64,000 nucleotides of DNA, taken from IMG/VR virus record IMGVR_UViG_3300020411_000003. One strand, written 5' to 3'. Below, in pieces: positions 233 through 38,695 of the stretch. A model generated the notes under the pieces. The model searched no databases. It was not told the DNA's origin and saw nothing but the letters and a program-made list of their open reading frames with translations. Within the stretch, counting starts at the first letter, position 1; each line of letters opens with the position of its first letter. This DNA is from a virus. A program made the position numbers and the translations under genes.

Positions 233-795
233 CGTTTAAATGTCAGATTAAATGAGAGTGAGACACGATTGTGATTTGTTTCATTGATACGTGTACCATG
301 CATAAGAAATGATGGCCACAACACGATTAGTCCTTTCTTTGGTATGATTTGTCGTGCCATGTCTAGATGAGCAATCATATAATTGTTCTCAGACACGTAG
401 TGTGGTGAATGAAAGTAAATGTTCCCATCCCTTTGGTTGGTACTCACATAATACACGCCACTGATGTCGCTGCCACCATGACTGTGCAAGTGTGCATACT
501 GTCCATTAGTAGTTGACGTGAACCATGAGTTGTTAATATCATAGGGATCATGTGATTTAATACCAATATCATTTAAGTATTGTGTCACATGATATTGAAG
601 AAACAACTGAAATTTCTCTGACTTTTCTATCACATTTGATTCAAATGGATTAGGTGTCAGATGATGTGTATCAGATGACCAACCAGGACGATGAACAAAC
701 TCGGTGAGTGTTAAATCATCATTGAGTTCTTTTCTCTCTGGTATAGAACATTGATACTCATATAAGGGAAGGGGAAACCACTGTTCAGTTGCCAT
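229..795 (-). CDS. 2OG-Fe(II) oxygenase, TIGR02466-like
   Basis: HLHSHGGSDISGVYY, WPSFLMHGT and RVSLSFN motifs. Confidence 0.8.
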   Translation of the reverse strand: MATEQWFPLPLYEYQCSIPERKELNDDLTLTEFVHRPGWSSDTHHLTPNPFESNVIEKSEKFQLFLQYHVTQYLNDIGIKSHDPYDINNSWFTSTTNGQYAHLHSHGGSDISGVYYVSTNQRDGNIYFHSPHYVSENNYMIAHLDMARQIIPKKGLIVLWPSFLMHGTRINETNHNRVSLSFNLTFKR

Positions 796-19400: not shown

Positions 19401-22400
19401 ATGAACTGTAGTTGCAAGAGGTGCAAAATCTAATGTTCCTTCGAATAGACTTGGGAAGAACTCAATCGTTCCTGTAGTAATAGTAGTTCTAACCTGTGCA
19501 GTATTAGTTCCACCACCACCATTGATCTCGATGTCTTCTTCAAACTTAGCATCACCAGTGAATCTAGACTCACCATCAACAACTAATGCTCTATCTAATT
19601 CAGTGTTAGTTACATTGATACCAACACGTCCACCATTAGCAGTAGAAACTCTAAAGGTTGACTCATTTTCTGGTGTAGCACTGTCGCCACCAACCATGAA
19701 CGCATCAGTACGATCCTGATATGTTCTGGTAGCATCAGTTGCATGTGATGCATAATCAGTGATCTTCTTACCACTGATGAATGCAGTACCAACAACATCT
19801 AAGTTAGCACGTGGTGTTGTCTTAGCATCAACGAAGTTCTTCTCGAAGGATGCCTTATCAGATCTACCAACTGTGTTAACACCAAGTTTGTAATCACCAA
19901 TAGTATCAGACTCTGTTCTAAGTGCTTCAGCACCAATAACACCCCACTCTTTCCAGTTGGAGTTAGAGTACTCAAGTCTAATATTAGGATTGTTAACAAC
20001 CTCATCAGACCACATTCTTGGGTTCTGATTGTTAACACTATTCTTGGTTGCACCGATAGCAATTTGTAATGTATCAGAAGCAGGATTAAATCCATTTGAT
20101 ATAACCTGCCATGTACCATTGAAATCACTATCAGAGAATCCTGTGATCTTAATCTCAGAGGATGATGTGATACCAAGTTGTGTGTTAGTTAGTGAAACCC
20201 ACTTGATTGTAATAACGTTGGTGTTGTTGAATGCAAATGATTCAGGAACAGCGTTACCAATTAATGTGTAGTAGTTAGAGTAGATCCAACCAAGTGATCC
20301 AGTCTTACCAATACTCTCACCCTTAAGTAAGAAGTCACCAGAGGTAGGAGCACCAGCATTACCATACTGAACAATTTGTGATGCACCAAATGCACCAGTC
20401 TGATCAGGAGTAATATTAGAAGGTACAGCACCTACAACATGTGTCTGAATCTTATATGCTTGACCATCTCTGCGACTATTGAACTGGAAAATTGCTGCGG
20501 AAATTTTATTCCTAGCAATGACAATATCACCACCAGTTTCGACATTTCTGACGAATGCTGATCTATCAAGAGAACCATCATCAATAGCAGGATCAACGAA
20601 GGAAGAAACTACCAACGCAGGGTTGTTTCTAACAGTTCCAAGAACATTAATTAGAACAGGTGAGTTGAATGTACTTCTCTTATCCTGAGCCTCACCACCA
20701 TTAACAGTGATGTACTCATTAAATGTAACAGGAGTATCAAACGTAGTAACTAGATTGCCTAGTGTCTCGTCATCATCAGCAGAATCCTGAAGTGTTGCAG
20801 ACTCAAGGAATACTTCTTCACCAGTGATAGCATCAATCTTACGGTTACCAATGTATAGGTCACCATTTGAGTTAAGACCAGTGTAGAATACTAAACCACC
20901 ATCTTGCTTCTTAGACTGTGCATAGAAATCTTGTATCTCTGTGAGTACAACTTCTTGACGTTGAGGTAGACCAGTTGAGTAGTTACCTGGACCAAAACCG
21001 AGATATTCAAATGTGTGGTTACCTGCTCTTGCGATAGATGGTCGTCTAAGTTCAACGTAGTATCGTTGATCTGTTTGGACTGTACTATCACCAGCGATAG
21101 GAATTAATCTATCTTCTGATCCAGAAGCAGCGTTACCCTTCTGTGCTCTAATTCTATTATCAACGGAGGCTGATACTTGTGTATAAGTATTAGTTCCAAA
21201 TGCATTGTTCTTAACCAGATCAATGACACTCTCTTGAGTTAGTGAACCCTTGAAGTCATTAACTCTTACAAGACCGTGAACATAGTTATCAGCAGCAGAA
21301 TATGTCTGAGGTGGATCAACTAATGTTGCATCCAACTGCTGATACCAGAGAGGATCGTTCTTATAGTTTAATGGATATAGTTTGCTGATAGGCTGAGAGA
21401 ACTTGAAGTTCTTGAAGTTACCTAAGTTACCAGCACCTTGAGGCATTGGTGAAATATTACCACGAACAGCAGTTAGATAGTAGATACCATCTTGCTGACC
21501 ATAGATACGTTTCTGAATCTCCTGTGTATTGAAGATGTAGAATGTGTCATCAATCTGACCAACATCTTCTACTGACTCAACATAGTATTGGATACTTGCA
21601 TCGTCTTCAATAATATCACCAGGTGTGATAGTATATACAGCAGCACCATTCTGTCTGTAATAGTATTCAGGATAACCTTTCTTGATAAGATCCTTAAGTA
21701 CCAATGACTTACCCATGTCAGCATCAGCAAGTAGATCTGCGAATGCAGTACCCTGACTGAATCTGATATTATCAATAGAATCATAATCAATCTTACCAAC
21801 TGTATCCTTAAGGATCATGTGCCATGTAGTAGTACCAGGTACTTGCATGATGGCATGTAGATAACCATAACCACTAGAGTTACCAGCCCACTCGATTCTG
21901 TTACCTGCTACAGATTGTGTCTTGTTCGCAACGAATGCTCCACCTTGAGGTGCAGTAATCTTAACAGTAGTAAACTTAGTGTTTGCTAGTGCAGTGTTAG
22001 TAACACCCTGTTCAAATACAGTTAGTTCTAGATAATCATCAGCACCCTGAGTAACATATCTACCAGACTGAATCGTCATTGAGATATAGTTCTGAGTTGT
22101 GATAGTCTTAGCAAACTGTGTATTACCTACAAGATCTTTCTTGTATGGATCGTATGCTACTTCTTCATTAAGACTGAAGTTAATGAAGTCTTCCTTAGTG
22201 TAACCAATGTACTCGTTAGACTGTACTGGGTTAGAGAAACGTGCTTTAGTTACGTTACCAGATACAGGTTTCAGTAATAGTTTCTGAGGTACTAACCTTC
22301 TTGTTTCGTCAGTCCTTGTCTTAATAGTAAATCCGTTGAGTGGATCACGAACAGACTGTAAGTACTGAGGAATAACATAACGTAAACGATATAATCTATC

Positions 22401-25400
22401 ATCAGCAGGTCTCTCATCCTTAATTCTTTCGAACCAAGAATCATTTGTCTTATCAATACCATCAGCATACTCTCTAAGTCTCTTGATGATTTGATCTGTG
22501 CTGTTGTCATTCTCAACCTGTAAGTACCACTTACCATATATTACTGGGCTAGTGTTAGGATTAACGAAGGTAGGATCAAAGCGCATAGGAGACTCACGCT
22601 TGTTCGCAAAGACGTTGAAGTCATAAATGCCTGGTTGATATGTAATTGGGTTAACACCCTGTTCTGCATCACTCTTAGTCTTGTGAATAGTAAAGACTTT
22701 CTCTGTCTGATACCTAGCATAGAAGAACTTGTTGTTTAACAGTCTTCCATTAACATCTGCGACAGTAGTGTCACTAGCATATGCTGCACCAACTAAAGGT
22801 AGAGAACCACCTTCTCTCTTTCTAAAGAATACAGTGTGTCCTGTAATATTAGAGAATGGAACATCAAAGATGTGTGGAACATCTGTACGGATGTTAGTAT
22901 TACTTACACCATCAAGTACACAAGCATATTGATGTAGATCATAGTTATCATCCAATGTGAATTGATAAAGATCAATCTCTACATCTGGATGGATATCTTC
23001 TACTTCAGCAGAATGTAAGTAGATACCAGCAGCAGCATTTTCTTTGCTGCTTGCAAGCATGATCTTAGTTTGATCAGTACCATTAAATGTAGCAGAAATA
23101 CCATAGTTCTCAGGCTTGGTAGTTCTTGCAGGAGCAATTACATAATACTCTTGGTTAGTATTAAATCCATTAGGAAGTCTTACGAAACGCTTATCAACTT
23201 CAACATATGACTGTGTAACTGTATCATATCTTGGACGTGGAACCAATCTAACTGGTGTACCTGTCTCAAGATCATGTGGGTTAGCAACATTACCTTGTCC
23301 TAATGTCCAGACTGTTGCTCTAGATGAGAGTGCAGTAGACAACTGTGAAGGTTCACTACGTGGTACAGTTCCTAAACCAGTTTGAATAACTGTGCTAATA
23401 TTAGAGAAGTACTGACGTATAGCATTTGCTTGGTCAACACACTGAGGATATGTTGTATTCTGTGTGATAGTATCATCAACTGTTCTAGTAAGAGTTGTGT
23501 ATACACCATCAATGAATTCGAAGTACAAGTAAGAGTTAGTACTTGTAGCGTTAGCATTGATAGAAGGACCAAACTCTAGACCAAGAGGAACAGGGTTTCT
23601 CTCTACAGTATCAAGATAAGAAGCAGAGTTAATAGTTCCAGTGATTATCTGGAAGAGAGTTGTGATTGTAGATGCAACCTGTTGACAAGCACCATTAGAA
23701 ATAGTTCTTGGTACACCATCAAGACTTGTTGGTGTTTCAACTGTGTCAATAACAATCTTGAATAGTGAGTTAAGTGTTGATCTTACATCTTCACAAGATC
23801 CAACAGAAGGAGTTCTTGTAACACCACCAACTACTATTTTTTCTGCTGCACTGACGAAGGTATGAACTGACGTATCAGATGATACACCAACATTAACCGT
23901 GATTGAGGTAGCAGTAGTGCCAGTAATGGTAGGATCATTTAAAGAAGCGGGGTCTGTTGAACGTGGATATGTATGGTTAGTAGCATTATTATCTCTAGCA
24001 CATGTAAATGTGAGAGAATTATCAGGAATATAAACACTGGTTCCAGCACTGTAACTATGAGCACCGATCTCAAGTGTTAAAGCACCAGTAGCAGGATCAT
24101 AAGATGATGTAGATACTGTATGCTTCTTACCAGATAATGTACTAGGATCTGCAATAGCATCAGTTACAATCTTAGCAAGAGTACCAACAGCAGATCTCAT
24201 GTCCTCACAAGGACCATTAGAATCTGTACGTGTTACACCTTGAAGTGATGCAGGACTCTGGATTGTACCTGTTAAGATAGAAACCAAAGTATCAATAGCA
24301 CTGAGTACAACGTTGCAGTCTCCGTTACTTACACCATCAGTGATGGTAGTATCTTTAACCTGAGCTAATGATGTGTGACCACCAACAGTAACATCTACGT
24401 TAGTAGCAATCTCTTTGATGATGTCACGTACTGCATTGAATGCAAAGATAGTTTCATTCTCAGATCCTGAAGCATGAGCACCAGCAACATAAAGGTTAGC
24501 AGCATCCCATACTCTATGGTTACCACCATAACCTGTGTTATGTGCAACAACCTTAACTACATCCTTAAGATCATCTAAGCAATCAGTAGAACTATAACCA
24601 GACTGCCATGTGTAAGAAGGATACTGAGCGATCATTCTACCCAATGCAATCTCTGCTGCAAACTCAACGTTAGCTAAGATTAGATCTTTAGCATCAGCAT
24701 GTCTGTTGCTTACATGAGCAGCTACGTTAGCAGTTATAGAAGTGTCCCTAACTTGAGTACGACCATGAGAACCAAGTGTTACAATGTTCTCATTCCTAGC
24801 GATTTGAATCATCAAATCACGTGCATGATTAAGTGCATCAATAGTTTGTTGCTCTTCACCAGCAACCTCTTGAACCATACCCTGAACATAGAGATCAGTC
24901 ATCTCCCAAACTCTATCGTTACCACCGTATGCTAGGTTGTATGAGACTTCTTCAACAAAGTCTACGATATCGTCTTTACAATCTTGTGGGTTACCTGTTG
25001 GAGGAACAAAACCAGGATAGTTAACCAACATCCTCTCATATGCCTCATCCGCAATGAGTAGTTTGTTAGCAACAACTAGGTTACGTGCATCACCAAATCT
25101 ATCTGTTGGGGGATCAGGTTCGTTGTAAGTAATACTCTTATCGAATACCTGAGATAAACCATGATGTCCAGTAACAAGGATCTTCTGGTTTCTAAGTGCT
25201 TGAGCAGCCATCTCACGTGCTTGCTCAAATACATAATTGGTTTCTTCTTCCTCACCAGCAACATGAGCACCAGTCTTGTATGAGTATGCAGCATCCCATG
25301 TCTTATCATTACCACCATAGGCAATGTTATCAGCAACTGCTTCAAGTAGATCAACAACATCATCAATACAATCTTGATTATGATACTGTTGGTTACCAGC

Positions 25401-28400
25401 AACTGTGAATACTTTATGAATGGAATTAGTTACTGCACTAACAAACTTATGGAAGTATGCACCACCAGTTTGAACAGCACCAGCAGATGCAGTAGTGAAC
25501 AGATGTGGATACTGATCAGCAAGAGCAGCAGCACCAACATTAACTGTGAATGTTCCTGACTCTCTTTCAATATTATTAGCAACTGCTCTTACAAATGTAT
25601 GGTTAGCAGTAGGATAATGCTTGATAGAATTAGCAACAGCACTTACAAATGTGTGAGGTGACTGTGGTTCAAAATGTACAGCATTAGTAGTTGAACTTAC
25701 AAATGTATGAGTGTATCTCTGGTTGTAGATAACAGCATTAGTATTTGCAGATACAAATGTATGATCATATTGATCAGCAGTAGCAGCAAAGTTAACATTA
25801 ACTGTAATAGTTGTAGCAGTAGCGTCCTTAATTTCTAGATCGCTATTGTATGCTGGATCTGTAACTCTAGGATATGTGTGGTTAGTAGCATTGTTGTCCT
25901 TAGTACATGTAAATGTCAAGGAATCAGTTGCTAGTCTAATCTTCTCACCGTTCTGTAGATCATGTACACCGATATCAAGAACAAGATCACCATTAGATGC
26001 ATTGTAAGAAGCAGAAGTAGGTGTATAGTTAGTTAAAGGAGATGCACCAATGTTAACTGTAATAGTTCCATTCTGTCTCTTGATGCCATTAGCAACAGCA
26101 GATACAAATGTATGATTAGTAGTATCACTAGAGATACCTACGTTAACATCGAATGCATTTGTTGTTACGTTCTGGATCTTCAACCAACGTCCACTTGGGT
26201 AGTCAAATCCTGCACGGGGATAATTTTTGGAACTTACGTTACCATCAAGGTCACATGTCATGACAAGTGAACCATCAACTATCTGGATATAATCTCCATG
26301 AGAGAATCCATGATTATTAACAGTCAATGAAAGAACACCTGTCTCTGGAATATATGATGCACCAGCAGCACTGTGGAGTGTAGCACCTACCTCATTAATA
26401 GTGATAGATTTCTCACCTGCATATGGATCAATTCCTGGACGTGGGTAACTATGGTTAGAAGTATTGTTGTCCTTAGAACATGTAAAGGTTAATGAATTAT
26501 CTTTAAGGATAATGTTTGCACCTTCACGAAGACCATGCTGACCAATAGTAAGAATCATGTCACCAGTGGTTGAGTTATAATCAGCAGCACTTGGAGTCCA
26601 TGTCTGGTTATCTCCAGCTCCACCAACATTAACTGTAATAGTGTTAGAAGTTCTTCCAACAATATTCAATGATCTTGAAGAAGCCCAGTCACTACCAGTC
26701 TGACGTGTAATTGCATCAGCAACACCACTCACAAATGTATGTACATCTGTGTTAGTAGAAGGTAGACCAGCAAGACACTGGAATTCAAATGTAGTTGCAC
26801 TTACGTTAGAAACTTTAATCCACTGACCACTTACAGGATCACTAGGACGTGGGTATGATTTCTCAGCAATAGAACCAGTAGCACCGTTGAATCCACAACT
26901 GAATGTTAATGCACCATCGGCAATCTTAACAAAGTCACCATCTAATAATCCATGCTCAGTTGTAGTTGTAATAGAAACAATACCTGTTGTAGGATTATAT
27001 GTTGTACCAGTTGTAGCAGTAAGAGATTTAGATGCTGGACGTGGATATACTTTATTGGATTGTTCACCATCCATCTGACACTTGAATGTCAGTGAGTTGT
27101 CATCGATAGTAATACCATCACCAACAGCGAGAGAGTGAGAACCAATTGTTAAAGTAAGATCTCCACTAGCAGGGTCATAGTTTGCACCTGTTGGTGTGAA
27201 CTTATTCTCTGTAATATCAGCAACAACAGCACCGTAGTCAGCAGATATAAATGTGTGAGTATAGTTACCACCACTTGTTACAGAATCAGCAAGACCAGAA
27301 ACAAATAGATGTTGTGTAGTGTCAGAAGACTTACCAACATCAAGTGTAATTGAATCAGCAGTAACAGCAGTAACATTTACAGGAGAATCATATGACTTAT
27401 CTCTCTTCTGAGTAACCGCACCAGCAACAGCAGATACAAATGTATGTGCAGTGGTGTTAGTAGATGGAGCAAAGTCTAATACTTGAATATCAAATGTGTC
27501 TATGGTTACAGCAAGAACCTTAACCCACTTGTTACTGATAGGATCAGTAGCACGAGGATATGTGTGGTTAGTACCATCGTTATCTTGAGCACATGTAAAG
27601 GTTAGAGAATTATCTGCTACCTTAACCCAATCTCCTTGCTTGATACCATGACCACTATTGGTTAATGTAAGAACACCTGTTGAAGGATCATAACTTGCAT
27701 CAGATATATTATGTGAATCAATAGTTGATCTTGGATATGCATGATTGGTAGCATTATTATCCTGAGCACATGTGAATGTGACAGCACCATCAGCAAGTTT
27801 AACAGAATCACCAACACTAATATTATGATTACCAATAATTAATGTCATCAAACCAGTTACGGGATCGAATGATGCACCCGTTGGAGTATGAGTAACTAGA
27901 GGTGATGCACCAACATTAATAACAATTTCATCACCAGAAACTGAATTTACTATTGTAGGTGTATTGTAGATAGGATCAGTTTGTCTAGGATATGACTTAA
28001 TCTCTGAAGTATCACCCATTGTGCAACGGAACTTCAATGAGTCCTGTGCTATAGTAATATTCTTACCAATAGGAATATTATGGTTAGGGATTGTTAGGAT
28101 TAAGTTACCACTTGCAGGTTGATAATCTACACCAGTTGGTGTGTAAGATTGAGAAGCACCTGCCTGACCAACATTAACCTTGAATGAATCTGAGGTTGAA
28201 CCATAAATTGATAACCACTTACCATTGCTAGGATCCTTAAGTCTTGGATAAGCATGCTCAGTAGCATTATTATCCATGTCACATGTAAATGTGAGAGATC
28301 CATCAGCAATCTTAATTCTGTCACCATCAGTGAATCCATGACCAGCAACTACCAGTGTTAATTCACCTGTTGCAGGATCATAAGAAGCATTAGTTGAACT

Positions 28401-31400
28401 ATGATAGGTAGAACCAACATCCTTAACAACTAGAGAACTAGTACCAGCAGGATCAGTAGGTCTAGGATATGCATGTTCTGTTGCATTGTTATCCTTATTA
28501 CAGGTAAACTTAATAGAATTACCAATAATCTTAACGTCTTGACCTGGCTCTAAATTATGCTGACCAACTGTTAATGTAAGATCACCAGTTGAAGGATTAT
28601 ATGCTGCATCACTTACATCAAGATTACCTTGAGATGTCTTACCAATATTAACAGTAATTTGATTAGTAGATGCTGCTAAGACTGGTAGATCCTCTTGGTA
28701 TGCAGGGTCACTGATACGTGGATATGCATGAGAACTACCATGATTATCCATATCACAGGTAAATGTCAAAGCACCATAATCAATTCTTATACGATCATTA
28801 GCTTTCTTGATACCATTAGGATTAGCATCAATGAATGAATGAGTGTAGTTACCGCCAGTTGTAATTGCATTAGGTATAGCACTGACGAATGTATGTGCAG
28901 TTGTATTAGATGATGTACCAACATCTAAGGTTACTGTGTCATTGTATCTTGTTAATCCATTGGCAACAGCACCAACAAATGTATGTGCATAGTTACCACC
29001 AGAAATTAGAGCACCACTTGTAGCAGATACAAATGTGTGTAGATAATTACCACCAGTCTTAACAGCACCTGCATCAGCAGACTTGAATGTGTGGACGTAT
29101 CCACCACCAGACTTAACAGCACCTGCTAGTGCAGATACGAAAGTATGTACATCTGTAGTCTTGCTTGAAGGTCCAACATTAATTGTGATAGTGTCAGCAG
29201 TAACACCAGTGATTTCTATTGCTTGATCATATGATCTGTCAACCTTAGAAGTAATACCGTTGGTGCTACCAGTTACGAACAAGTGAGCAGTGGTATTAGT
29301 AGAAGGAATAACATCCAATACTTGTACTTCAAATGTAGTTGAAGTTACATTAGAAACCTTCAACCACTTACTACTTACTGGATCAGTTACACGAGGATAT
29401 GTGTGCTGAGTAGCATTATTATCCTCCATACATGTGAAGGTAAATGCACCAGTAGCAAACTGAACATAGTCACCGTTCTTGATGTTATGAGCAGCAGTTG
29501 TTACACTTAATATACCTGTAGCTGGATCATATGTTGTACCAGCAGCAGCTGTATGTGTTTCAGTAGCAGATCTAGGATAAGACTTAGCACTTTGACTACC
29601 AACAGAGAATCCAACGAATACTGTCATTGTTGTACCAGTGACAGAATCTAGACCCAATGTTTCATTACGGAATGGGTCAGTAGCACGTGGATATGTGTGT
29701 TGTGTAGCATTATTGTCAGCATCACAAGTGAATGTCAATGCATCCTGTGCAAATGTAATTGTACTATTTGCTTTCTTAAGACCACTAGCAGTAGCTGATA
29801 CAAATGTGTGTGCATAGTTTCCACCAGATGTAACACAATTAGCGGTTGCAGAAACAAATGTATGTGCTGTAGTATTAGTAGATGGGATTGTACTCAATAC
29901 CTGAACACTAATTGTTGTAGCAGTTACATCTGTAATAGCAAATGCTTTATCAGAGAATGGATCAGTTGCACGTGGATATGTATGAGTTGTTGCGTGATTA
30001 TCTTCAGCACAAGTGAATGTTAGAGAGTTATCAGCAATCTTAACAGCAGTACCAACAGTCAGACTATGAGCACCAATGGTAAGTTCCATTATACCAGTGG
30101 TAGGATCATAATTTGCACCTGTAGGTGTATGCTGTATTAATGGAGATGAACCAACATCAACTGAGAATGAATCTTGAGTTACATTAGAAATTTGTAACCA
30201 CTTACCGAATGTAGGATCAGATCTGCGTGGGTATGTCTTAGTAGAAACATTACCGTCCATAGCACAGTTAAGTGATATAGAACCTTCAGCAAATTTAACT
30301 CTATCACCATTACTAAATCCATGATTAGCAATAGTAACAACCATAGCACCAGTTGCAGCATTATATGTTGCGTCTGTTACTGTATGTGTAGAAGCAGCAT
30401 TTAAAGAGTGTGCTCCAACTTCAAGAACCAATTCACCTGTTATAGGATCGTAAGTTGTTCCAGAAGCTGCTGTCCAATTATTGCCACCACCATCGGTGAT
30501 ACCATTATTAGCACCAGTGATAAAGGTGTGTGGAACATTACCATATGTACAACTGAATGTTACACCACCATCAGCAATCTTGATTGACTCACCAACAGTT
30601 AGACTGTGGTTTCCAATCTTCAATGTCATCTCACCTGTTGCAGGGTCGTATGAACCATCATCAACATTGTGACTTACTATTGGAGATTGACCAACATCAA
30701 TAGTAATAGTTGTAGCTGTTACTGCTGTAATCTCAATAGAAGTATCATGTACAGGATCAGTTGAACGAGGATAAGACTTGACACTATAGTTTCCATCCAT
30801 CTCACAAGTAAACTTGAGAGCATCATCATCGATCTTGATACTTGTGCCAGCAGTTAAACTGTGACTACCTATAGTTAATTCCATCAATCCTGTGTTAGGA
30901 TCATAGGTAGCATTAGTTGGTGTAAATTCTACAATAGGAGACTTACCAACATTAACTGTAATATCACCACCTCTCTTAGAGATAGCGTGACTAGTTGCTC
31001 TCTTAAATGTATGAGCAGACTGTGGTAAATTCTTAATTGAATTTGTTAATGCAGATACGAATGTATGTGCTGACTGAGGCTTATATTCAACAGCATCGGT
31101 AAGAGCAGATACAAATGTGTGAGCATATCTGTTAGCAGGATCAGCATCAAAACCAACATTAATTGTTAATGTTCCGTCTTGCTTTAAGATACCGTTAGCA
31201 GAAGCAGAAACAAATGTGTGTACTGAGTTATCAGTAGAAGAACCAACATTAATTGTAAATGTATCAGTGGTTGCTGATAGAATAGGAACCCATCTGTTGC
31301 TTAGTGAATCAAAGTTAGTACGTGGATATGTTTTCTGACTTACATTACCATCAAGATCACATGTCAATGTAATAGAGTTATCTGCTACCTGAATGTAATC

Positions 31401-34400
31401 TCCTGGTGAGAATCCATGACTAGCAACAGTAACAACCATAGCACCAGTTGAAGGTGTGTAGTCAACATTAGTTGCTGTATGTTGTGTAGAACCAACTGCT
31501 GTAACAGCGATTGACTTACCAGCAAAAGGATCAGTACCAGGACGAGGATATGAATGCTGAGTAGCACCACCATCCTTATCACAAGTAAATGCTAATGAGT
31601 TATCTTTTAATACAATGTCAGTACCAACACGTAATCCATGTTGACCAACAGTAAGAACCATGTCACCATTGTTCTCATTATATGTTGCACCAGTAGGAGT
31701 TAGGAACTTATTAGAACCAGCAGCACCTACATTAAGTGTAAACTTACCTGTATCAATTGCTGTAATTGGAAGAGATCTTCCAGAAGCTTTATCTAAGTTT
31801 GCACGTGGATATGACTGAGCAACTTGGTTGCCATCCATTGTACATGTAAATGATAGAGCACCGTCATCCATGACGATTCCATCACCAACAGATAAATTAT
31901 GAGGACCAACAGTAAGTTCTAAGTCACCTGTTGCAGGATCATAAGAAGCATTAGTTGGAGTAAATTCTACGTTAGAACCAGCATCTGCAATCTGAACTTT
32001 GAATGTATTTTGTGCTACATCATAAACAGGTAACCAATCACCAGAATAAGGATCAGTTGCACGTGGATACTTATGCTCGGAAGCATTGTTATCCATACCA
32101 CATGTGAATGTCAAAGATTCCTTAGCAATCTTAATAAGTTCACCATTTGCTATTCCATGATTAGGAACAGTAAATTCAAGTACACCTGTAGATGGATTAT
32201 AGTTAGCGTTAGAGATATCAAAGTCACCACCAACACCAATAACTTCTAGTCCAGTATTATATGCAGGATCAGTTACACGAGGATAAGTATGGTTAGAACT
32301 ATTTCCATCCATACCACATGTAAATGTTAATGCATCAGTAGCAAATCTGATATTCTCACCAACATCAATGTCATGATTTCCATCAACACTAACTGTTAAC
32401 TGACCACTTGCAGGATCATAGTTAGCATTAGTAATATCATATGTTACTGCACCAGTAGTTCCAACATGTGCTTCAAAAGTATTATTGGTTGTGTTTGTAA
32501 TAGTAACCCACTTACCACTGATAGGATCACTCTTACGTGGATATGAATGCTCAGTAGCATTAGCATCCATTGCACAAGTAAAGATTAGAGAATCATCATC
32601 AAGTCTAATCTTATCTCCATCAGAGAATCCATGATTAGCAAGAGTAAATTCTATTGTACCTTTGTCAGGATTATATCCAGCACCAGTAACTGTATGCTTA
32701 GAACCATCTGCTACAATCTTAACAGAACTTTGATATGCTGGATCAGTAGAACGAGGATATACATGCTGTGTAGCATGATTATCTTGAGCACATGTAAATG
32801 TAAATGCAGAGTCTTCAACTCTTACATTCTGACCTTCACTTAACTGATGGTTTGGAATAGTTACAGTCAACAAACCAGTAGCAGGAGCAAATGAAGCAGC
32901 AGTTACATCATGTCCAACTAATAAAGACTTACCTACATCAACACTGAATGTATTTGTATCTGCCTCAACAACCTCAATCCACTTATCACTAATAGGATCT
33001 GTAGAACGTGGGTATGTATGAACAGAAGCATTTCCATCCATTGAACATGTCAATGTTAATGAATCATCTTCAATCTTAATCTTACTACCAGCAGCTAAAC
33101 CATGAGCATTAGATGTAATAGTTAACCAACCAGTTTCAGGATTATAAGTTGCATCTGAAGCAGTGATTGAAGTAGGACCAATTAGACCATGACTAGCAAT
33201 GTCAAGAGTCAAATCACCTGTTGCTGGATCATACTCAGCATCAGATGGTGTATACTCAGCAGTAGAAGAACGAATCAACATTCTCTCTACAGATTCAGCA
33301 GCAATCAGTTGCTTGTTAGCAAGAATCAAATTACGTGCATCACCATTTCTGTCATTAACCACTTCAGGTGGTTCATAAGTGACAGTATTATCATATGTTT
33401 GAGTTAGACCATGACTACCAAACACAAATGCTTGCTCGTTACGCATGATCTGGATAGACATATCCCTTGCATATTCAATAGCACGGATAGTCTCATTTTT
33501 CTTCTGTGAAATATACTGAACTGCACCACTATCATAGTGATAAGCAGCATCCCATACTTCATCGTTACCACCATAAGCAGTGTTCTCAGCAATTGCTTCA
33601 ACGATGTCAACTAAGTCATCTCTACAATCCTGTGGACCATATCCTTGAGGTGAAGTGTAGGATGGATAATCCAACACCATTCTGTCAAATGCTTCAGCAG
33701 CAATGAATAATTTGTTTGAAAGTAATAGGTTTCTAGCATCACCATTACGATCAGAGATTACCTTCTTCGTAGAGAAAGTTGCTTTTTGTCCAAGTTCGAT
33801 CTCTGTTGATGAGACAACTCTCTTAACGTATGTGTTATCTGGAATAACAGGAGATGCAGGACGTGTAGCACCAGTATTAAGTTTATTATCTGTAAACTCA
33901 CTAGGATCATAGTCAGCAACTGTCATACCCTGTACAACACCACTGGTATCACCAATATCAACAATGGCAGATCCACCAGTAGTTTCTACACCAGTACGTA
34001 AGTATGAGAAATTACGTATAGATGCAATAGCAAGATCTCTAGCGTAGTCGTAACCCTCTAGAGTTTCAGTAAGTTCTGATGTAATATATGATAAGTTATT
34101 ACCAACATAATATGATTCAGCAGCCTGAATAGTATTAATGTTACCACCAAGTCTTAAATCTTGAATAGTAGCATCAAGTAGATATCCAATGTCACGACGA
34201 CACTTAACAATATCAATACCTTCTCTGTCTAAGAGGTATGGATACTTATTAGTAATGAATCCGTATGCCTCGTAAGCAATAAATTCTTTATTTGCTTCGA
34301 TAAGGTCAGCAGCATCAAGATCCTTATTATTAATTGTAATTCCAGTAGGATTAAGAATACTTGCAGTTGCATTGAATTTCTTAAATCCATTAGGAGATAA

Positions 34401-36260
34401 GGTTGCACTGAAAATATTGCTACTTCCAGCAGTTCTAGGAATTAATTTTACATATAACTTTTCATCTGACCTAGCACCTATACGGAATCCATCAATAGAT
34501 GCAGCGAGACGTGTCTCAGGATTATATCCTTCATCGTCTCCAAGATAGATCTTAGTCTGGTCTGATGCAGTGTTAAGATTTTTGGTAGCTGGAATATCAA
34601 TAGTATAATAAGCATTCTTCTTGATATTTCCAGTAGTTGTATCCACCACTTTAGGTGGAACAATGTCAGTAATATATCCACCCTTATCCTGTGCAAAGGC
34701 ATATCCTTTATGACCGATAGCATGTAAGGATGTATTACCAAAGTTGGAGTTAGAGTTGGTGATACTCATATCACCACCACTTTCCATTAAGAAGTGATCA
34801 GCGAAACCAACAGCGAAGATACTAACACACTGAATGAATGCGTCTTCAGATGCACGAACGTGGAAGTTTCTCCAGTCATCCTTCCAGAATGCATCACCCT
34901 TAGTATGATAAGGTACTGTTGCAAATGCGTCTGTTAGAGATGCTTGGTTAAATGTGTTTGTAAACTCATCATATCTGATGAATGCTCTATCGTCTTTCTG
35001 TAGAGATACACCAGTGTACTGAGCGATAACCATTGATTTGAAACCAGTGGCTTTCAAACCATTTGCCCAGATACCACAAATACCCCATGTAGATCTGATG
35101 GAGCAGTTGAATACGTATGGAGATGCAGATTCAACAGAGTCAACTTCTGCTTTAACAACTGCGTTTGAATCTAAACCATTTGCAGCAGTATATGTTGTGC
35201 CACTTATTAAAGATGTACTAGTTCCAAGAGCAGCAACAGTTCCTGGTATATTATAGGAGAACTTACGTTGATCAACTAAATCAATCTCAGAGATTGTGAA
35301 TACACCATCAAGTTGTTCATCTAGACCATTGTTTTCAATAGCAACGAACTGGTTCTTGAAGTAACCATGATTAACTTTAGATGTTACTTCAACATTAATT
35401 GTTCCTGCTGGTGCAGAATCTGTAAGTTTAATACTCTCAATAGAACGAATATCTGAGAGAGGTCCAACAATTCTAGTCTCTTGAATTCTATCACTGAATT
35501 CACCTGGATCATCAATTGTTGGTTGATATTGTGAAAATGCTTTAGCAACTTTCTGATAATACAGACCTAATTCTTCTTTGTCTGCATACTCAAAAACAGT
35601 CAGTTTATGGTGAGAGAAGTTTGGTACAGCTTTTGCAGTCCAATCACCATTTTGATAATAAACTTTACCAATTCCGTCAGAATTGTCAAACAATGGTGAC
35701 GCAGGTTCTAAATCACCATCTCTGATAGTGAACTGCCAGAAGTAACAACCACCAGTAACATTGAATATAGCAGAGCGAGCTTCTAAGCGATCAGCAGGAT
35801 CGGGAACAAACAGTGGATGAACTGATGTTCTACGTAGGTCATAACCAATAATAGAAGAACCACGAGGGATAATAGCACCACCCTCAGTGTTGTTAAATTT
35901 GTAGAGACAGTTGTTAGGATCACCAATATCTAAGTTAGAATTGTCAACCCATTCGTTGAGTGCTTGATCAAATTGGAACGGATCGATTCCATCAGCAGTA
36001 GCAAGACCAGGTCTGTTATCAACGTAATGCTTACCTGGCATCACCATGACAGTAAACTGGTCAAACCTATCGTTATCAGGACCTGGTTGGTAAGAGAATC
36101 GTGAAATCTCTAAAAATGCCCTCTGAATAGATTTAAACGGTCTAATAGGGGAGTTACCTCTATTATTAATCTCATCCGTTGCGTTAAAATCGTCAGGAGA
36201 AACATACAAATACTTACCAGTTTTAGAACTAATAAGATTGTCAAGTCTTGTCAAAGCCAT
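16428..36260 (-). CDS. giant virion structural protein (6610 aa), probable long fibre/adhesin
   Basis: Uninterrupted ORF; cyanophage-type N-terminus LYVSPDDFNATD...GNSPIRPFKSIQRA; late promoter upstream; lies in the fibre module. Confidence 0.9.
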   Translation of the reverse strand: MALTRLDNLISSKTGKYLYVSPDDFNATDEINNRGNSPIRPFKSIQRAFLEISRFSYQPGPDNDRFDQFTVMVMPGKHYVDNRPGLATADGIDPFQFDQALNEWVDNSNLDIGDPNNCLYKFNNTEGGAIIPRGSSIIGYDLRRTSVHPLFVPDPADRLEARSAIFNVTGGCYFWQFTIRDGDLEPASPLFDNSDGIGKVYYQNGDWTAKAVPNFSHHKLTVFEYADKEELGLYYQKVAKAFSQYQPTIDDPGEFSDRIQETRIVGPLSDIRSIESIKLTDSAPAGTINVEVTSKVNHGYFKNQFVAIENNGLDEQLDGVFTISEIDLVDQRKFSYNIPGTVAALGTSTSLISGTTYTAANGLDSNAVVKAEVDSVESASPYVFNCSIRSTWGICGIWANGLKATGFKSMVIAQYTGVSLQKDDRAFIRYDEFTNTFNQASLTDAFATVPYHTKGDAFWKDDWRNFHVRASEDAFIQCVSIFAVGFADHFLMESGGDMSITNSNSNFGNTSLHAIGHKGYAFAQDKGGYITDIVPPKVVDTTTGNIKKNAYYTIDIPATKNLNTASDQTKIYLGDDEGYNPETRLAASIDGFRIGARSDEKLYVKLIPRTAGSSNIFSATLSPNGFKKFNATASILNPTGITINNKDLDAADLIEANKEFIAYEAYGFITNKYPYLLDREGIDIVKCRRDIGYLLDATIQDLRLGGNINTIQAAESYYVGNNLSYITSELTETLEGYDYARDLAIASIRNFSYLRTGVETTGGSAIVDIGDTSGVVQGMTVADYDPSEFTDNKLNTGATRPASPVIPDNTYVKRVVSSTEIELGQKATFSTKKVISDRNGDARNLLLSNKLFIAAEAFDRMVLDYPSYTSPQGYGPQDCRDDLVDIVEAIAENTAYGGNDEVWDAAYHYDSGAVQYISQKKNETIRAIEYARDMSIQIMRNEQAFVFGSHGLTQTYDNTVTYEPPEVVNDRNGDARNLILANKQLIAAESVERMLIRSSTAEYTPSDAEYDPATGDLTLDIASHGLIGPTSITASDATYNPETGWLTITSNAHGLAAGSKIKIEDDSLTLTCSMDGNASVHTYPRSTDPISDKWIEVVEADTNTFSVDVGKSLLVGHDVTAASFAPATGLLTVTIPNHQLSEGQNVRVEDSAFTFTCAQDNHATQHVYPRSTDPAYQSSVKIVADGSKHTVTGAGYNPDKGTIEFTLANHGFSDGDKIRLDDDSLIFTCAMDANATEHSYPRKSDPISGKWVTITNTTNNTFEAHVGTTGAVTYDITNANYDPASGQLTVSVDGNHDIDVGENIRFATDALTFTCGMDGNSSNHTYPRVTDPAYNTGLEVIGVGGDFDISNANYNPSTGVLEFTVPNHGIANGELIKIAKESLTFTCGMDNNASEHKYPRATDPYSGDWLPVYDVAQNTFKVQIADAGSNVEFTPTNASYDPATGDLELTVGPHNLSVGDGIVMDDGALSFTCTMDGNQVAQSYPRANLDKASGRSLPITAIDTGKFTLNVGAAGSNKFLTPTGATYNENNGDMVLTVGQHGLRVGTDIVLKDNSLAFTCDKDGGATQHSYPRPGTDPFAGKSIAVTAVGSTQHTATNVDYTPSTGAMVVTVASHGFSPGDYIQVADNSITLTCDLDGNVSQKTYPRTNFDSLSNRWVPILSATTDTFTINVGSSTDNSVHTFVSASANGILKQDGTLTINVGFDADPANRYAHTFVSALTDAVEYKPQSAHTFVSALTNSIKNLPQSAHTFKRATSHAISKRGGDITVNVGKSPIVEFTPTNATYDPNTGLMELTIGSHSLTAGTSIKIDDDALKFTCEMDGNYSVKSYPRSTDPVHDTSIEITAVTATTITIDVGQSPIVSHNVDDGSYDPATGEMTLKIGNHSLTVGESIKIADGGVTFSCTYGNVPHTFITGANNGITDGGGNNWTAASGTTYDPITGELVLEVGAHSLNAASTHTVTDATYNAATGAMVVTIANHGFSNGDRVKFAEGSISLNCAMDGNVSTKTYPRRSDPTFGKWLQISNVTQDSFSVDVGSSPLIQHTPTGANYDPTTGIMELTIGAHSLTVGTAVKIADNSLTFTCAEDNHATTHTYPRATDPFSDKAFAITDVTATTISVQVLSTIPSTNTTAHTFVSATANCVTSGGNYAHTFVSATASGLKKANSTITFAQDALTFTCDADNNATQHTYPRATDPFRNETLGLDSVTGTTMTVFVGFSVGSQSAKSYPRSATETHTAAAGTTYDPATGILSVTTAAHNIKNGDYVQFATGAFTFTCMEDNNATQHTYPRVTDPVSSKWLKVSNVTSTTFEVQVLDVIPSTNTTAHLFVTGSTNGITSKVDRSYDQAIEITGVTADTITINVGPSSKTTDVHTFVSALAGAVKSGGGYVHTFKSADAGAVKTGGNYLHTFVSATSGALISGGNYAHTFVGAVANGLTRYNDTVTLDVGTSSNTTAHTFVSAIPNAITTGGNYTHSFIDANPNGIKKANDRIRIDYGALTFTCDMDNHGSSHAYPRISDPAYQEDLPVLAASTNQITVNIGKTSQGNLDVSDAAYNPSTGDLTLTVGQHNLEPGQDVKIIGNSIKFTCNKDNNATEHAYPRPTDPAGTSSLVVKDVGSTYHSSTNASYDPATGELTLVVAGHGFTDGDRIKIADGSLTFTCDMDNNATEHAYPRLKDPSNGKWLSIYGSTSDSFKVNVGQAGASQSYTPTGVDYQPASGNLILTIPNHNIPIGKNITIAQDSLKFRCTMGDTSEIKSYPRQTDPIYNTPTIVNSVSGDEIVINVGASPLVTHTPTGASFDPVTGLMTLIIGNHNISVGDSVKLADGAVTFTCAQDNNATNHAYPRSTIDSHNISDASYDPSTGVLTLTNSGHGIKQGDWVKVADNSLTFTCAQDNDGTNHTYPRATDPISNKWVKVLAVTIDTFDIQVLDFAPSTNTTAHTFVSAVAGAVTQKRDKSYDSPVNVTAVTADSITLDVGKSSDTTQHLFVSGLADSVTSGGNYTHTFISADYGAVVADITENKFTPTGANYDPASGDLTLTIGSHSLAVGDGITIDDNSLTFKCQMDGEQSNKVYPRPASKSLTATTGTTYNPTTGIVSITTTTEHGLLDGDFVKIADGALTFSCGFNGATGSIAEKSYPRPSDPVSGQWIKVSNVSATTFEFQCLAGLPSTNTDVHTFVSGVADAITRQTGSDWASSRSLNIVGRTSNTITVNVGGAGDNQTWTPSAADYNSTTGDMILTIGQHGLREGANIILKDNSLTFTCSKDNNTSNHSYPRPGIDPYAGEKSITINEVGATLHSAAGASYIPETGVLSLTVNNHGFSHGDYIQIVDGSLVMTCDLDGNVSSKNYPRAGFDYPSGRWLKIQNVTTNAFDVNVGISSDTTNHTFVSAVANGIKRQNGTITVNIGASPLTNYTPTSASYNASNGDLVLDIGVHDLQNGEKIRLATDSLTFTCTKDNNATNHTYPRVTDPAYNSDLEIKDATATTITVNVNFAATADQYDHTFVSANTNAVIYNQRYTHTFVSSTTNAVHFEPQSPHTFVSAVANSIKHYPTANHTFVRAVANNIERESGTFTVNVGAAALADQYPHLFTTASAGAVQTGGAYFHKFVSAVTNSIHKVFTVAGNQQYHNQDCIDDVVDLLEAVADNIAYGGNDKTWDAAYSYKTGAHVAGEEEETNYVFEQAREMAAQALRNQKILVTGHHGLSQVFDKSITYNEPDPPTDRFGDARNLVVANKLLIADEAYERMLVNYPGFVPPTGNPQDCKDDIVDFVEEVSYNLAYGGNDRVWEMTDLYVQGMVQEVAGEEQQTIDALNHARDLMIQIARNENIVTLGSHGRTQVRDTSITANVAAHVSNRHADAKDLILANVEFAAEIALGRMIAQYPSYTWQSGYSSTDCLDDLKDVVKVVAHNTGYGGNHRVWDAANLYVAGAHASGSENETIFAFNAVRDIIKEIATNVDVTVGGHTSLAQVKDTTITDGVSNGDCNVVLSAIDTLVSILTGTIQSPASLQGVTRTDSNGPCEDMRSAVGTLAKIVTDAIADPSTLSGKKHTVSTSSYDPATGALTLEIGAHSYSAGTSVYIPDNSLTFTCARDNNATNHTYPRSTDPASLNDPTITGTTATSITVNVGVSSDTSVHTFVSAAEKIVVGGVTRTPSVGSCEDVRSTLNSLFKIVIDTVETPTSLDGVPRTISNGACQQVASTITTLFQIITGTINSASYLDTVERNPVPLGLEFGPSINANATSTNSYLYFEFIDGVYTTLTRTVDDTITQNTTYPQCVDQANAIRQYFSNISTVIQTGLGTVPRSEPSQLSTALSSRATVWTLGQGNVANPHDLETGTPVRLVPRPRYDTVTQSYVEVDKRFVRLPNGFNTNQEYYVIAPARTTKPENYGISATFNGTDQTKIMLASSKENAAAGIYLHSAEVEDIHPDVEIDLYQFTLDDNYDLHQYACVLDGVSNTNIRTDVPHIFDVPFSNITGHTVFFRKREGGSLPLVGAAYASDTTVADVNGRLLNNKFFYARYQTEKVFTIHKTKSDAEQGVNPITYQPGIYDFNVFANKRESPMRFDPTFVNPNTSPVIYGKWYLQVENDNSTDQIIKRLREYADGIDKTNDSWFERIKDERPADDRLYRLRYVIPQYLQSVRDPLNGFTIKTRTDETRRLVPQKLLLKPVSGNVTKARFSNPVQSNEYIGYTKEDFINFSLNEEVAYDPYKKDLVGNTQFAKTITTQNYISMTIQSGRYVTQGADDYLELTVFEQGVTNTALANTKFTTVKITAPQGGAFVANKTQSVAGNRIEWAGNSSGYGYLHAIMQVPGTTTWHMILKDTVGKIDYDSIDNIRFSQGTAFADLLADADMGKSLVLKDLIKKGYPEYYYRQNGAAVYTITPGDIIEDDASIQYYVESVEDVGQIDDTFYIFNTQEIQKRIYGQQDGIYYLTAVRGNISPMPQGAGNLGNFKNFKFSQPISKLYPLNYKNDPLWYQQLDATLVDPPQTYSAADNYVHGLVRVNDFKGSLTQESVIDLVKNNAFGTNTYTQVSASVDNRIRAQKGNAASGSEDRLIPIAGDSTVQTDQRYYVELRRPSIARAGNHTFEYLGFGPGNYSTGLPQRQEVVLTEIQDFYAQSKKQDGGLVFYTGLNSNGDLYIGNRKIDAITGEEVFLESATLQDSADDDETLGNLVTTFDTPVTFNEYITVNGGEAQDKRSTFNSPVLINVLGTVRNNPALVVSSFVDPAIDDGSLDRSAFVRNVETGGDIVIARNKISAAIFQFNSRRDGQAYKIQTHVVGAVPSNITPDQTGAFGASQIVQYGNAGAPTSGDFLLKGESIGKTGSLGWIYSNYYTLIGNAVPESFAFNNTNVITIKWVSLTNTQLGITSSSEIKITGFSDSDFNGTWQVISNGFNPASDTLQIAIGATKNSVNNQNPRMWSDEVVNNPNIRLEYSNSNWKEWGVIGAEALRTESDTIGDYKLGVNTVGRSDKASFEKNFVDAKTTPRANLDVVGTAFISGKKITDYASHATDATRTYQDRTDAFMVGGDSATPENESTFRVSTANGGRVGINVTNTELDRALVVDGESRFTGDAKFEEDIEINGGGGTNTAQVRTTITTGTIEFFPSLFEGTLDFAPLATTVHVANDSTADQFIRVGNASLHSNIWIGATPDTSTNISKIEIGGAYNNNESLSFTLIGTKSFKTKGDFQLGTDRGLLDTVKLTSTAGTVEFFSGNSATSKLDFATNAAEITIAGKGGTTTIRNNLVVDSSARFNSDITLCGGFASYSFTAYRAQIGSTAFSHASGDLGNNVFNSNVDLIDVLRVASTSDVYNAVDTAGTGDWGGTIFQNEITQISGTVEPLTLPALTGEQYYLPLKNRPFDNNGDQYISEQDILLIDTDDSGNRHPEFVKVISLPRINVAPYWIVVERLPFGTYTAKRSDHPDTTAIYKCVVQYNATWTTTTIDATGAEENVYLAQFGGSIELGDYVIIDREDTTNNGIFDQGEMFKVKVLLSQVAKKLSIKNGCDTANEVTVFEVDSTTGNTQLGTGGTTVINGQLSLNGTCASPYTNDPTNKKLTITNGSEITTFEVDTCTGDTTIGNHHGTVFMLAEQYGTAPAAYTKGVDEVHVYRHNPMSVISGGPATTTADNVVTATSNIEIQGNLTSFTKGDLVAIYTTDAIEIIQITDDPYTGGGGELLLPTSSNAQYTNGGRGMEGTSARAFSIGANVVKLDKYDRTTTLLHDVPALQADRATELKARTPNQSDIRLEISLKDADLIAPKLDYVTLVRIGSEFFLPDSVDGTLDAFYAIKMPKQIREPNVVGTTPVQLFGGGSTTINQDLEIMSGVLRMYGSDGKTLVMSIANDDGHSGDGSLEDPKTETAGLTLKGAAAFYGDLKIYYDNCQMHGVCSTETSFRVTNREGNILMGETFYQKGKVLSVESAIDPIFHIDNLGAAGTGGTEGPKDFKIYQNNAIDSFGIEKYWTAGGGRRHTYVAFDPTTGLGQQIDNPLQVNQNYLVNASSGSNMVVYLPDNAQTGDMIRFVELSGNLTYNTSLIIRAKKINNIATNIQGDGSGSRIAAGAGQTLNTAWDSGELIIQTRNASFGLVYAGTVDVEGSASAQTIPPGLRGWWLIEL
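25400..33260 (-). repeat. about 25 imperfect beta-rich protein repeats (YDPxTG...FTCxxDNNxxxHxYPRxxDP...HTFVSA), nested
   Basis: Counted about 26 YPR motifs in the translation, one of them an isolated unit at about 23870-24120. Confidence 0.85.
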
Positions 36261-36526: not shown

Positions 36527-36528
36527 AA

Positions 36529-37608: not shown

Positions 37609-37616
37609 TGTATGAA

Positions 37617-38691: not shown

Positions 38692-38695
38692 CTAT

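What the first reader, a model, noticed from the sequence alone, without database searches (positions are those of the whole stretch)
25400..33260. Recursively nested (matryoshka) domain insertions in a 6610-aa virion protein
Seen: the repeat unit reads YDPxTG...H.L..G...FTC..D...YPR..DP...VG.S followed by a closing HTFVSA strand. The units are not simply tandem. Openers stack up and closers then appear in runs (HTF.. four times at about 28960-29150; similar runs at about 31000-31230 and 25430-25770), like balanced brackets. Example: a unit opens GAHSLNAAS (~30400), two complete units intervene, and it resumes LKKANSTITFAQDALTFTC (~29770). The whole ~2600-aa block itself sits inside a helical repeat, between DARNL...RM and DCIDD. 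Inference: a branched or tree-like fibre built by repeated insertion of domains into loops, possibly a mechanism for diversifying receptor binding.
Basis: partly seen in the sequence, partly recalled or inferred. Interest (0 to 1): 0.72.

Follow-up and report, generated by a model that had tools for sequence, protein, structure and literature searches.

The report
Ten-deep nested barrel tree, cyanophage fibre
A 6,610-residue tail protein of a marine cyanobacterial virus holds 25 copies of one small beta-barrel domain plugged into each other's loops, up to ten deep and branched; that is deeper than the six-level nesting reported as the extreme case in a 2026 survey of protein structures.

Summary

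- **The protein.** The ORF at 16428-36260 (-) encodes 6,610 aa and is the syntenic counterpart of the giant 'short tail fiber protein' of T4-like cyanophages.
- **The count.** Residues 1004-3619 hold 25 openers, 25 middle pieces and 25 HTFVSA closers of one ~100-aa unit.
- **The parse.** A stack parser reads them as one balanced tree with no violation. It is ten levels deep, with six branch points and seven leaves. Only 1 in 3.6 million within-run orderings of the closers is valid.
- **The host.** The block interrupts the second of four helical repeats.
- **The models.** For units 5-8, AlphaFold2 gave pLDDT 93 and pTM 0.84. Structural alignments there, and in a weaker model of units 10-14, place distant closers in the barrels that last-in-first-out pairing predicts (units 6, 7 and 12).
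- **The fold.** The unit resembles the endosialidase barrel and the E1 FCCH barrel.
- **Relatives.** They carry 2 to 26 units and differ by whole units.
- **Closest published case.** The Si3 insertion of cyanobacterial RNA polymerase has eight domains and six levels.
- **Open points.** Function is untested; a multivalent adhesin tree is my inference.
- **Earlier notes.** This scan noted the same architecture before in at least six other genomes.

The parts
16428..36260 (-). Giant ORF, 6,610 aa. It is the syntenic counterpart of the 'short tail fiber / tail protein' giant of T4-like cyanomyoviruses.
   Evidence: ORF; phrog_4527 and phrog_529 at E=0; 51-53% identity to S-CAM4, S-PM2 and S-RIM32 proteins; same gene order in S-CAM4.
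33756..36260 (-). N-terminal conserved region (aa 1-835), the most conserved part among close orthologues.
   Evidence: 94% identity among close orthologues.
33252..33755 (-). Helical repeat 1 (aa 836-968) and the first helix of repeat 2 (aa 969-1003, DARNL...RM).
   Evidence: DARNL motifs at aa 841 and 974. Repeat 1 aligns to aa 961-996 and then to aa 3624-3725.
25404..33251 (-). Nested block (aa 1004-3619). It holds 25 barrel units in one balanced tree of depth 10, with 6 branch points and 7 leaves.
33165..33251 (-). Opener (A piece) of the trunk unit 0. Its B-d-e pieces lie at 28620-28805 and its closer at 25404-25460, about 2,600 residues away.
   Evidence: parser token table.
30969..32219 (-). 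Units 5>6>7>8 (aa 1348-1764). This is the conserved four-unit core nest, modelled by AF2.
   Evidence: the same 20-token word occurs 72 times in 80 related loci; pLDDT 93.4, pTM 0.84; discontinuous barrel alignments.
29103..30668 (-). Units 10-14 (aa 1865-2386). Unit 10 is split inside its Cys loop. Unit 11 looks circularly permuted and hosts units 12>13 in its A|B loop. Unit 14 sits after the YPR motif.
   Evidence: pLDDT 72.7, with the unit 10 pieces below 50; unit 12 spans 92..302.
30924..31229 (-). First closer run: E8, e7, E7, E6, E5, e4.
28806..29156 (-). Second closer run: E10, E9, E4, E3, e2, E2, E1.
25404..25772 (-). Last closer run: E24, E22, E20, E16, e15, E15, E0.
24171..25403 (-). 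Remainder of helical repeat 2 (starting at DCIDD), then repeats 3 and 4 (aa 3620-4030).
23820..24119 (-). Lone, uninterrupted unit (A-B-d-e-E, aa 4048-4147). It defines the complete domain.
16428..23819 (-). C-terminal ~2,460 aa, fibre-like and without barrel units.
   Evidence: phrog_4527 and phrog_529 matches; no tokens.

Best explanation
**What it is.** The block is a covalent tree of 25 small six-stranded beta-barrels. The fold is of the endosialidase-barrel / E1-FCCH type.

**How the chain runs.**
- Each new barrel, or balanced sub-tree, sits in a surface loop of an older barrel.
- The chain runs outward through unfinished barrels, folds the leaf barrels, and supplies the missing strands on the way back in last-in-first-out order. 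These strands are an orphan 'TxTxNVG' strand and/or the 18-aa HTFVSA closer.
- Both ends of the block return to one loop of a helical-repeat rod in a baseplate or tail-fibre protein of a T4-like cyanomyovirus.

**What is shown.** The grammar is shown. So are the predicted closure of units 6, 7 and 12, the whole-unit differences between relatives, and the host repeat.

**What is inferred.**
- Every junction is crossed by two chain segments, so the tree should be stiffer than beads on a string.
- The outer barrels can only finish folding after everything inside them has been made.
- The tree works as a multivalent, lectin-like adhesin or reach-extending decoration that helps adsorption to picocyanobacteria. 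Its size and tips change by gain or loss of units. I put about 50% on this function.
- The invariant His (A), Cys and Asp (B) and His (E) may form a metal clasp that locks the closer.
For: **Sequence grammar.**
- 25/25/25 tokens and a violation-free parse.
- Only one valid closer order per run, joint p = 2.8e-7.
- Pieces per unit sum to 90-127 aa.

**Models.**
- AF2 of units 5-8 gave pLDDT 93.4 and pTM 0.84, with all closers as strands.
- VIA-align rows for the contiguous unit 8 span 244..349: 4hiz_A Z 8.3, rmsd 2.1, 81 aligned; 4p22_B Z 8.2.
- Unit 7 spans 172..381: 9lc0_I, 81 aligned.
- Unit 6 spans 83/85..397 in eight rows, for example 8qq5_A with 81 aligned.
- Unit 12 spans 92..302 in about 20 rows, including K1F endosialidase 424-508 (Z 7.8, rmsd 2.0).

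**Relatives.**
- L086, at 80% identity, lacks exactly unit 14.
- Within the protein, the paralogous copy of the core carries whole extra units 21 and 24.
- Orthologues hold 2, 8, 9, 11, 13, 14 or 26 units.
- Independent metagenome contigs at 90-98% identity share the architecture.

**Context.**
- Host-repeat spacing is 37/2656/36/37 aa.
- The gene lies in a tail and baseplate neighbourhood.
Against: - No experimental structure exists. The tool does not show AF2 coordinates, and the alignment ranges give only the first and last aligned residue.
- Closure of units 5, 0, 10 and 11 is not directly shown. The unit 10 pieces have pLDDT below 50, and unit 11 has one weak row.
- The d and e tokens were assigned from gap lengths, not from significant HMM hits.
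- Automated parsing of distant homologues was noisy.
- Function, oligomeric state, metal binding and virion location are untested here.
Confidence: 0.85

Rival explanations
1. The units form a plain tandem string of incomplete barrels, and the HTFVSA 18-mers fold among themselves as a separate repeat structure.
For: The closers occur in runs with an 18-aa period. Foldseek on the whole model only found strings of FN3-like domains, with TM at most 0.16.
Against: - The counts are exactly equal.
- The orphan strands and orphan B-d-e pieces sit only where a stack predicts.
- The lone unit carries its own closer.
- The models place closers in distant barrels.
Confidence: 0.04
2. The nesting is real in sequence and in evolution. 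In the assembled virion, however, closers complete barrels of neighbouring subunits (intermolecular strand swap), so the tree is an oligomeric mesh.
For: Tail fibres are usually trimers (general knowledge). Only monomers were modelled.
Against: - The monomer model is already very confident (pTM 0.84).
- Linkers between a leaf's last strand and its closer are only a few residues long.
- Nothing in the sequence suggests a trimerising register in the block.
Confidence: 0.07
3. The architecture is an assembly or annotation artefact caused by repeat-rich DNA.
For: The region is repetitive.
Against: - The DNA copies are at most about 80% identical, so collapse or mis-joining is unlikely.
- One uninterrupted 19.8-kb ORF covers the region.
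- The same 26-unit word appears in several independent IMG/VR and JGI contigs at 90-98% identity.
Confidence: 0.01

Closest known systems
Si3 insertion in the trigger loop of cyanobacterial RNA polymerase beta' (RpoC2)
   Same: Copies of one small beta domain are recursively inserted into each other, with bifurcating nodes, and the whole array sits in a loop of a host domain. In T. elongatus Si3, SBHM-2 to -5 are built from distant chain segments (PMC10895346). The Prochlorococcus rpoC2 model has eight domains in a 6-level recursion. That recursion is the most complex example shown in a survey of 2.7 million classified domains (PMC13114784).
   Different: - The fold is different: hybrid-motif SBHM/HABAS there, endosialidase/FCCH-like barrel here.
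- The scale is different: 8 domains and 6 levels there, against 25 domains and 10 levels here (11 with the host repeat).
- Si3 belongs to a cellular enzyme; this is a virion protein.
- No sequence match to any PDB chain was found.
Beta-barrel domain of phage endosialidases (phi92 4hiz, K1F 1v0e/3ju4)
   Same: It is the best structural match to single units: Z 7.6-8.5, rmsd 1.9-2.1 over 77-81 residues. It is also a phage tail-spike module. From my own recollection, it is an insertion into the propeller and binds sialic acid.
   Different: It shares only 15-16% identity with the unit. It occurs as a single copy, not nested in itself. Ligand-binding residues were not compared.
E1 ubiquitin-activating enzyme FCCH domain (Pfam PF16190)
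   Same: Fold match with Z 7-8.2. There are also weak Pfam hits to the opener region.
   Different: The block scores 29.3 bits against a gathering score of 29.5, and single units score at most 16.4 bits. The context and function are unrelated.
Giant 'short tail fiber / tail protein' of cultured T4-like cyanophages (S-CAM4 gp236, S-PM2, S-RIM32); PHROGs 4527, 529, 1276 and 5342
   Same: This is the same protein family and the same locus. The S-CAM4 protein already has a two-unit nest.
   Different: Those records carry names only. The searches I ran in the paper library found no description of the nesting. The window protein has 25 units, against 2 in S-CAM4.

Membership tests
Recursive self-insertion architecture (Si3 type) | Copies of one domain family interrupt each other (A1-B1-C-B2-A2 ...), with hosts that are themselves inserts | tested here: met
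   Stack parse with 0 violations and depth 10. Discontinuous barrels in the AF2 models.
Recursive self-insertion architecture (Si3 type) | The domain is the SBHM/HABAS hybrid motif of RNA polymerase | tested here: inconclusive
   The top structural rows are endosialidase, E1 FCCH and EF-Tu/FNR-type barrels. No RNA polymerase chain appears among the listed rows. There is no sequence hit to PDB.
Recursive self-insertion architecture (Si3 type) | Located in the trigger loop of RNA polymerase beta' | tested here: not met
   The host is a helical repeat of a phage tail protein.
Pfam PF16190 E1_FCCH | Score at or above the Pfam gathering threshold | tested here: not met
   29.3 against 29.5 bits for the 2,620-aa block. 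At most 16.4 bits for single units.
Endosialidase-type / b.43-like closed beta-barrel fold | Structural superposition over most of the domain | tested here: met
   4hiz Z 8.3-8.5 at rmsd 1.9-2.1 with 77-81 aligned. 3ju4 and 1v0e Z 7.6-7.8. These Z values are close to the tool's stated background of 7-8, so this is fold-level similarity only.
Endosialidase lectin-like barrel (function) | Conserved sugar-binding residues or ligand binding | not tested
   The tool does not give coordinates or residue-level alignments.
Cyanomyovirus giant tail-fibre-type protein (phrog_4527 / phrog_529) | Profile match at both ends and a conserved locus beside the hub-lysozyme, short-fibre and collar genes | tested here: met
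Virion component | Detected in purified particles | not testable with these tools
   Only annotation of relatives as tail or virion proteins is available.

The most novel reading that the evidence does not exclude
This family would be the deepest and largest self-nested domain tree known: ten barrel levels and 25 copies. It would grow and shrink by in-frame gain or loss of whole barrels or balanced sub-trees at five permissive loops, and so give cyanophages an evolvable, branched adhesin. Folding would be obligatorily last-in-first-out, so the trunk barrel stays open while about 2,600 residues are made. A His-Cys-Asp-His metal clasp may then lock each closer.
Probability: 0.35. Interest if true: 0.85.

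Novelty: new variant of a known kind. Interest (0 to 1): 0.78.

Why it matters
- **Limits of domain insertion.** A 2026 survey of 2.7 million classified domains shows a six-level recursion as its most complex case. This protein roughly doubles the depth and triples the copy number, with a different fold.
- **Folding.** How do barrels that lack their last strand avoid misfolding or aggregation while thousands of residues are still being made? This protein makes that question sharp and testable.
- **Protein design.** It offers a natural template for branched, double-strapped scaffolds.
- **Marine virology.** It points to a variable, probably host-contacting structure on abundant cyanophages. Unit number changes between close relatives.
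- **Scarcity.** The unit occurs in only 722 of 1.84 billion protein clusters.

Tried and rejected
- **Sequence libraries.** Pfam and PDB sequence searches gave nothing usable.
- **Foldseek on the four-unit model against PDB.** It returned only strings of FN3-like domains with TM at most 0.16, so it identified neither the fold nor the nesting. VIA-align was needed.
- **The short 'e' strand HMM.** It was too weak, so I assigned d and e pieces from the quantised gap lengths instead.
- **Retraining the token HMMs on homologues.** This lost one opener in the window protein and produced false violations. I used the union of both HMM sets for homologues and the original set for the window.
- **Automated parsing of distant homologues.** It was noisy. 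Only 19 of 81 proteins parsed cleanly, and the failures I read through traced to a missed closer or to false d/e calls after the end of a block.
- **Global alignment of the two paralogous halves.** It mis-paired the first units. Only the second half gave clean whole-unit gaps.
- **The metagenome scan.** It added only a few close orthologues, so the alignment for units 10-14 stayed shallow. Unit 10 came out at low confidence.
- **A second VIA run.** It gave no further rows for unit 11.
- It contained typed motif lists, so I rebuilt the motifs from coordinates (between).
- **Literature.** The searches found no description of this architecture in phage proteins.
Full report
**What is there.** The window carries a tail and baseplate gene cluster of a T4-like cyanomyovirus. 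It includes a gp5-like hub-lysozyme, short-fibre-like and collar-like genes, and virion proteins. One uninterrupted ORF on the minus strand, 16428-36260, encodes 6,610 aa.
- Its N-terminal 1,000 aa are 51-53% identical to the giant 'short tail fiber / tail protein' of Synechococcus phages S-CAM4, S-PM2 and S-RIM32.
- Both ends match phrog_4527 and phrog_529. The repeat region matches phrog_1276, 5342, 701 and 18802.
- In S-CAM4 the 4,057-aa counterpart lies in the same gene order.
- Pfam names nothing apart from a sub-threshold E1_FCCH hit. No PDB chain matches by sequence.

**Checking the observation.** I broke the sequence at the motifs. This showed five kinds of piece:
- A: YDPxTG...HxL.
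- B: G..I....LTFTC..D.N...H.YPR.
- d: DP....W..V.
- e: TxTxNVG.
- E: the 18-aa HTFVSA element.

One uninterrupted unit at aa 4048-4147 reads A-B-d-e-E and so defines the complete domain. HMMs built from eight uninterrupted units find 25 A, 25 B and 25 E pieces in aa 1004-3619. One B is split into complementary halves, HMM positions 2-19 and 22-30.

I wrote a stack parser in which A opens a unit and every later piece must be the next one needed by the unit on top of the stack. It accepts the whole string with no violation. The block closes exactly at aa 3619 and the maximum depth is 10.

The tree is 0>{1>2>3>4>{5>6>7>8, 9>10>{11>12>13, 14}}, 15>16>{17>18>19, 20>{21, 22>{23, 24}}}}. It has six branch points and seven leaves. 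By the parser's tally, insertions use the e|E loop 13 times, d|e 5 times, A|B twice and B|d twice. Units 11 and 14 sit in or just after the Cys loop of unit 10. Read by hand, unit 14 lies after YPR, so B|d is used three times and the Cys loop once.

The orphan pieces are the real test. There are five lone e strands, three d-e pairs and two B-d-e groups. Each lies exactly where the stack requires. When I permuted the closing pieces within each run, exactly one order per run stayed valid (15, 3, 720, 4, 2, 2 and 7 alternatives). The joint probability is 2.8e-7. The pieces assigned to each unit add up to 90-127 aa.

**Host repeat.** Four helical repeats carry a DARNL-type motif at aa 841, 974, 3724 and 3856, and a DCxDD motif at aa 878, 3630, 3760 and 3893. 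The spacing is 37, 2656, 36 and 37 aa. Repeat 1 aligns to aa 961-996 and then to aa 3624-3725.

**Structure.** Eighty related IMG/VR loci contain the 20-token word 'A B d e A B d e A B d A B d e E e E E E' 72 times, each 414-420 aa long. I aligned 50 of these with the window's units 5-8 (A1). AlphaFold2 then gave pLDDT 93.4 and pTM 0.84, with every closer a strand. The tool does not show coordinates, so I used the ranges reported by VIA-align against 48,161 PDB chains:
- The uninterrupted unit 8 (model 244..349) matches the barrel of phi92 endosialidase (4hiz_A 257-340; Z 8.3, rmsd 2.1, 81 aligned) and E1 FCCH (4p22_B, Z 8.2).
- Contiguous PDB barrels of about 85 residues also align to model 172..381 (9lc0_I, 81 aligned; 4ac9_A; 3e20_A).
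- Eight rows align to model 83/85..397 (for example 8qq5_A, 81 aligned; 5i4q_C, rmsd 2.6).

These spans start at the openers of units 7 and 6. They end on the closers that last-in-first-out pairing assigns to them (model 364-381 and 382-399).

A second model covers units 10-14. It used 13 sequences (A2) and is weaker: pLDDT 72.7, pTM 0.52. Its best rows, about 20 in two searches, still span 92..302. That is unit 12 closed across the nested unit 13. Examples are 4hiz Z 8.5 at rmsd 1.9, and K1F endosialidase 424-508 at Z 7.8 and rmsd 2.0.

Limits of this evidence:
- A range gives only the first and last aligned residue.
- Units 5 and 0 are not directly shown.
- The unit 10 pieces have pLDDT below 50.

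**Unit 11.** The closer-like element at aa 1908 precedes the opener of unit 11. It lies between ...FSC and a later ...SYPR of unit 10. The most economical reading is a circularly permuted unit (E-A-[12>13]-B-d-e) inserted in the Cys loop of unit 10. Without it the block would not balance. The token pattern 'A Ba E A' recurs in many unrelated loci. This remains an inference.

**Evolution.**
- L086, at 80% identity over this sub-block, lacks exactly unit 14. Its flanks align cleanly.
- Inside the window protein, units 16, 20, 22 and 23 are a paralogous copy of the core units 5-8. That copy carries units 21 and 24 as clean whole-unit gaps. The extra sub-tree 17>18>19 follows from the token parse only; the alignment mis-paired that part.
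- Orthologues and paralogues hold 2 (S-CAM4), 4, 5, 6, 8, 9, 11, 13, 14, 16, 24 or 26 units.
- DNA copies are at most about 80% identical, so the duplications are old and assembly error is unlikely. Independent contigs at 90-98% identity share the 26-unit word.
- Among close orthologues the block is 88.5% identical, against 94% for the N-terminus. Units 17, 19, 23 and 24 are the most variable, at 75-83%.
- The unit is rare. Only 722 of 1.84 billion cluster representatives match at E up to 0.001.
- BFVD holds matching predicted fragments of cyanophage proteins, for example ACG-2014d 'structural protein' at TMq 0.66 and the S-SSM7 'baseplate wedge initiator'.

**How it probably works.** What is shown is a chain that goes out through open barrels and closes them in reverse order, so that both ends return to one loop of the host rod. 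The rest is inferred:
- Double-strapped junctions should make a stiff, branched body.
- Folding has to proceed from the leaves to the trunk.
- The structural neighbours are phage decoration or lectin-like barrels (endosialidase, N4 tail, Mystique tail tube, FCWL1 connector). The gene is in a tail locus and unit number varies. So the tree most likely acts as a multivalent adhesin or reach-extender for adsorption. I give this about 50%.
- The invariant His (A), Cys and Asp (B) and His (E) suggest a metal site that locks the closer. This is untested.

**Comparison with what is known.** The closest published case is the Si3 insertion of cyanobacterial RNA polymerase. It has eight SBHM domains, four of them built from distant segments (PMC10895346). 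A 2026 survey of 2.7 million classified domains describes it as an eight-domain, six-level recursion with bifurcating nodes, and presents it as the most complex architecture (PMC13114784). The principle is therefore known. New here are the fold, the scale (25 units, 10 levels, 11 with the host), the virion setting and the family-wide variation. My literature searches found no description of it in phage proteins. The paper library is incomplete, so I cannot rule out an earlier description.

**Earlier notes of this scan.** The same architecture was noted in at least six other genomes. One note describes a 6,618-aa protein with 25 copies nested ten deep, which is evidently a near-orthologue. Those notes pointed me to Si3, and I then checked that in the papers myself.

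**Verdict.** I rate it a new variant of a known kind, with interest 0.78.

Noticed in passing
window 9601-13398 (-): A 1,265-aa virion protein (phrog_30655) with a very glycine-rich middle. It coincides with a local GC rise to 45% and a GC skew of -0.31.
   Followed up: partly
window ~23500-24400 (-), aa ~3960-4250: Short Cys-containing helical repeats of about 35 aa (xGxCxxVxSxIxTLxxIxT...). The lone barrel unit is inserted between two of them, which makes a second, independent host for the same insert.
   Followed up: no
all units, e.g. window 30969-32219 (-): His of the opener (HxL), Cys and Asp of FTCxxD, and His of HTFVSA are invariant or nearly so across 4 units in 50 sequences and across the window's own 26 units. 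They may form a metal site that clasps the closing strand.
   Followed up: partly
L205:14001-26174 (Synechococcus phage S-CAM4, NC_031900.1): The syntenic 4,057-aa 'short tail fiber protein' of a cultured phage has only two units, one nested in the other (aa 1265-1471). It would be a simple experimental model.
   Followed up: partly
L086:402-1676 and many loci among L088-L155: The token pattern 'A, truncated B, E, A' recurs widely. It reads as a permuted unit in the Cys loop. Single-unit proteins of 454-1,273 aa also exist (L144-L148, L153, L154).
   Followed up: partly
window 36500-39600: A tRNA, tmRNA and small-ORF region separates the giant gene from the hub-lysozyme genes, as in S-CAM4. 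Other notes of this scan already cover it.
   Followed up: no
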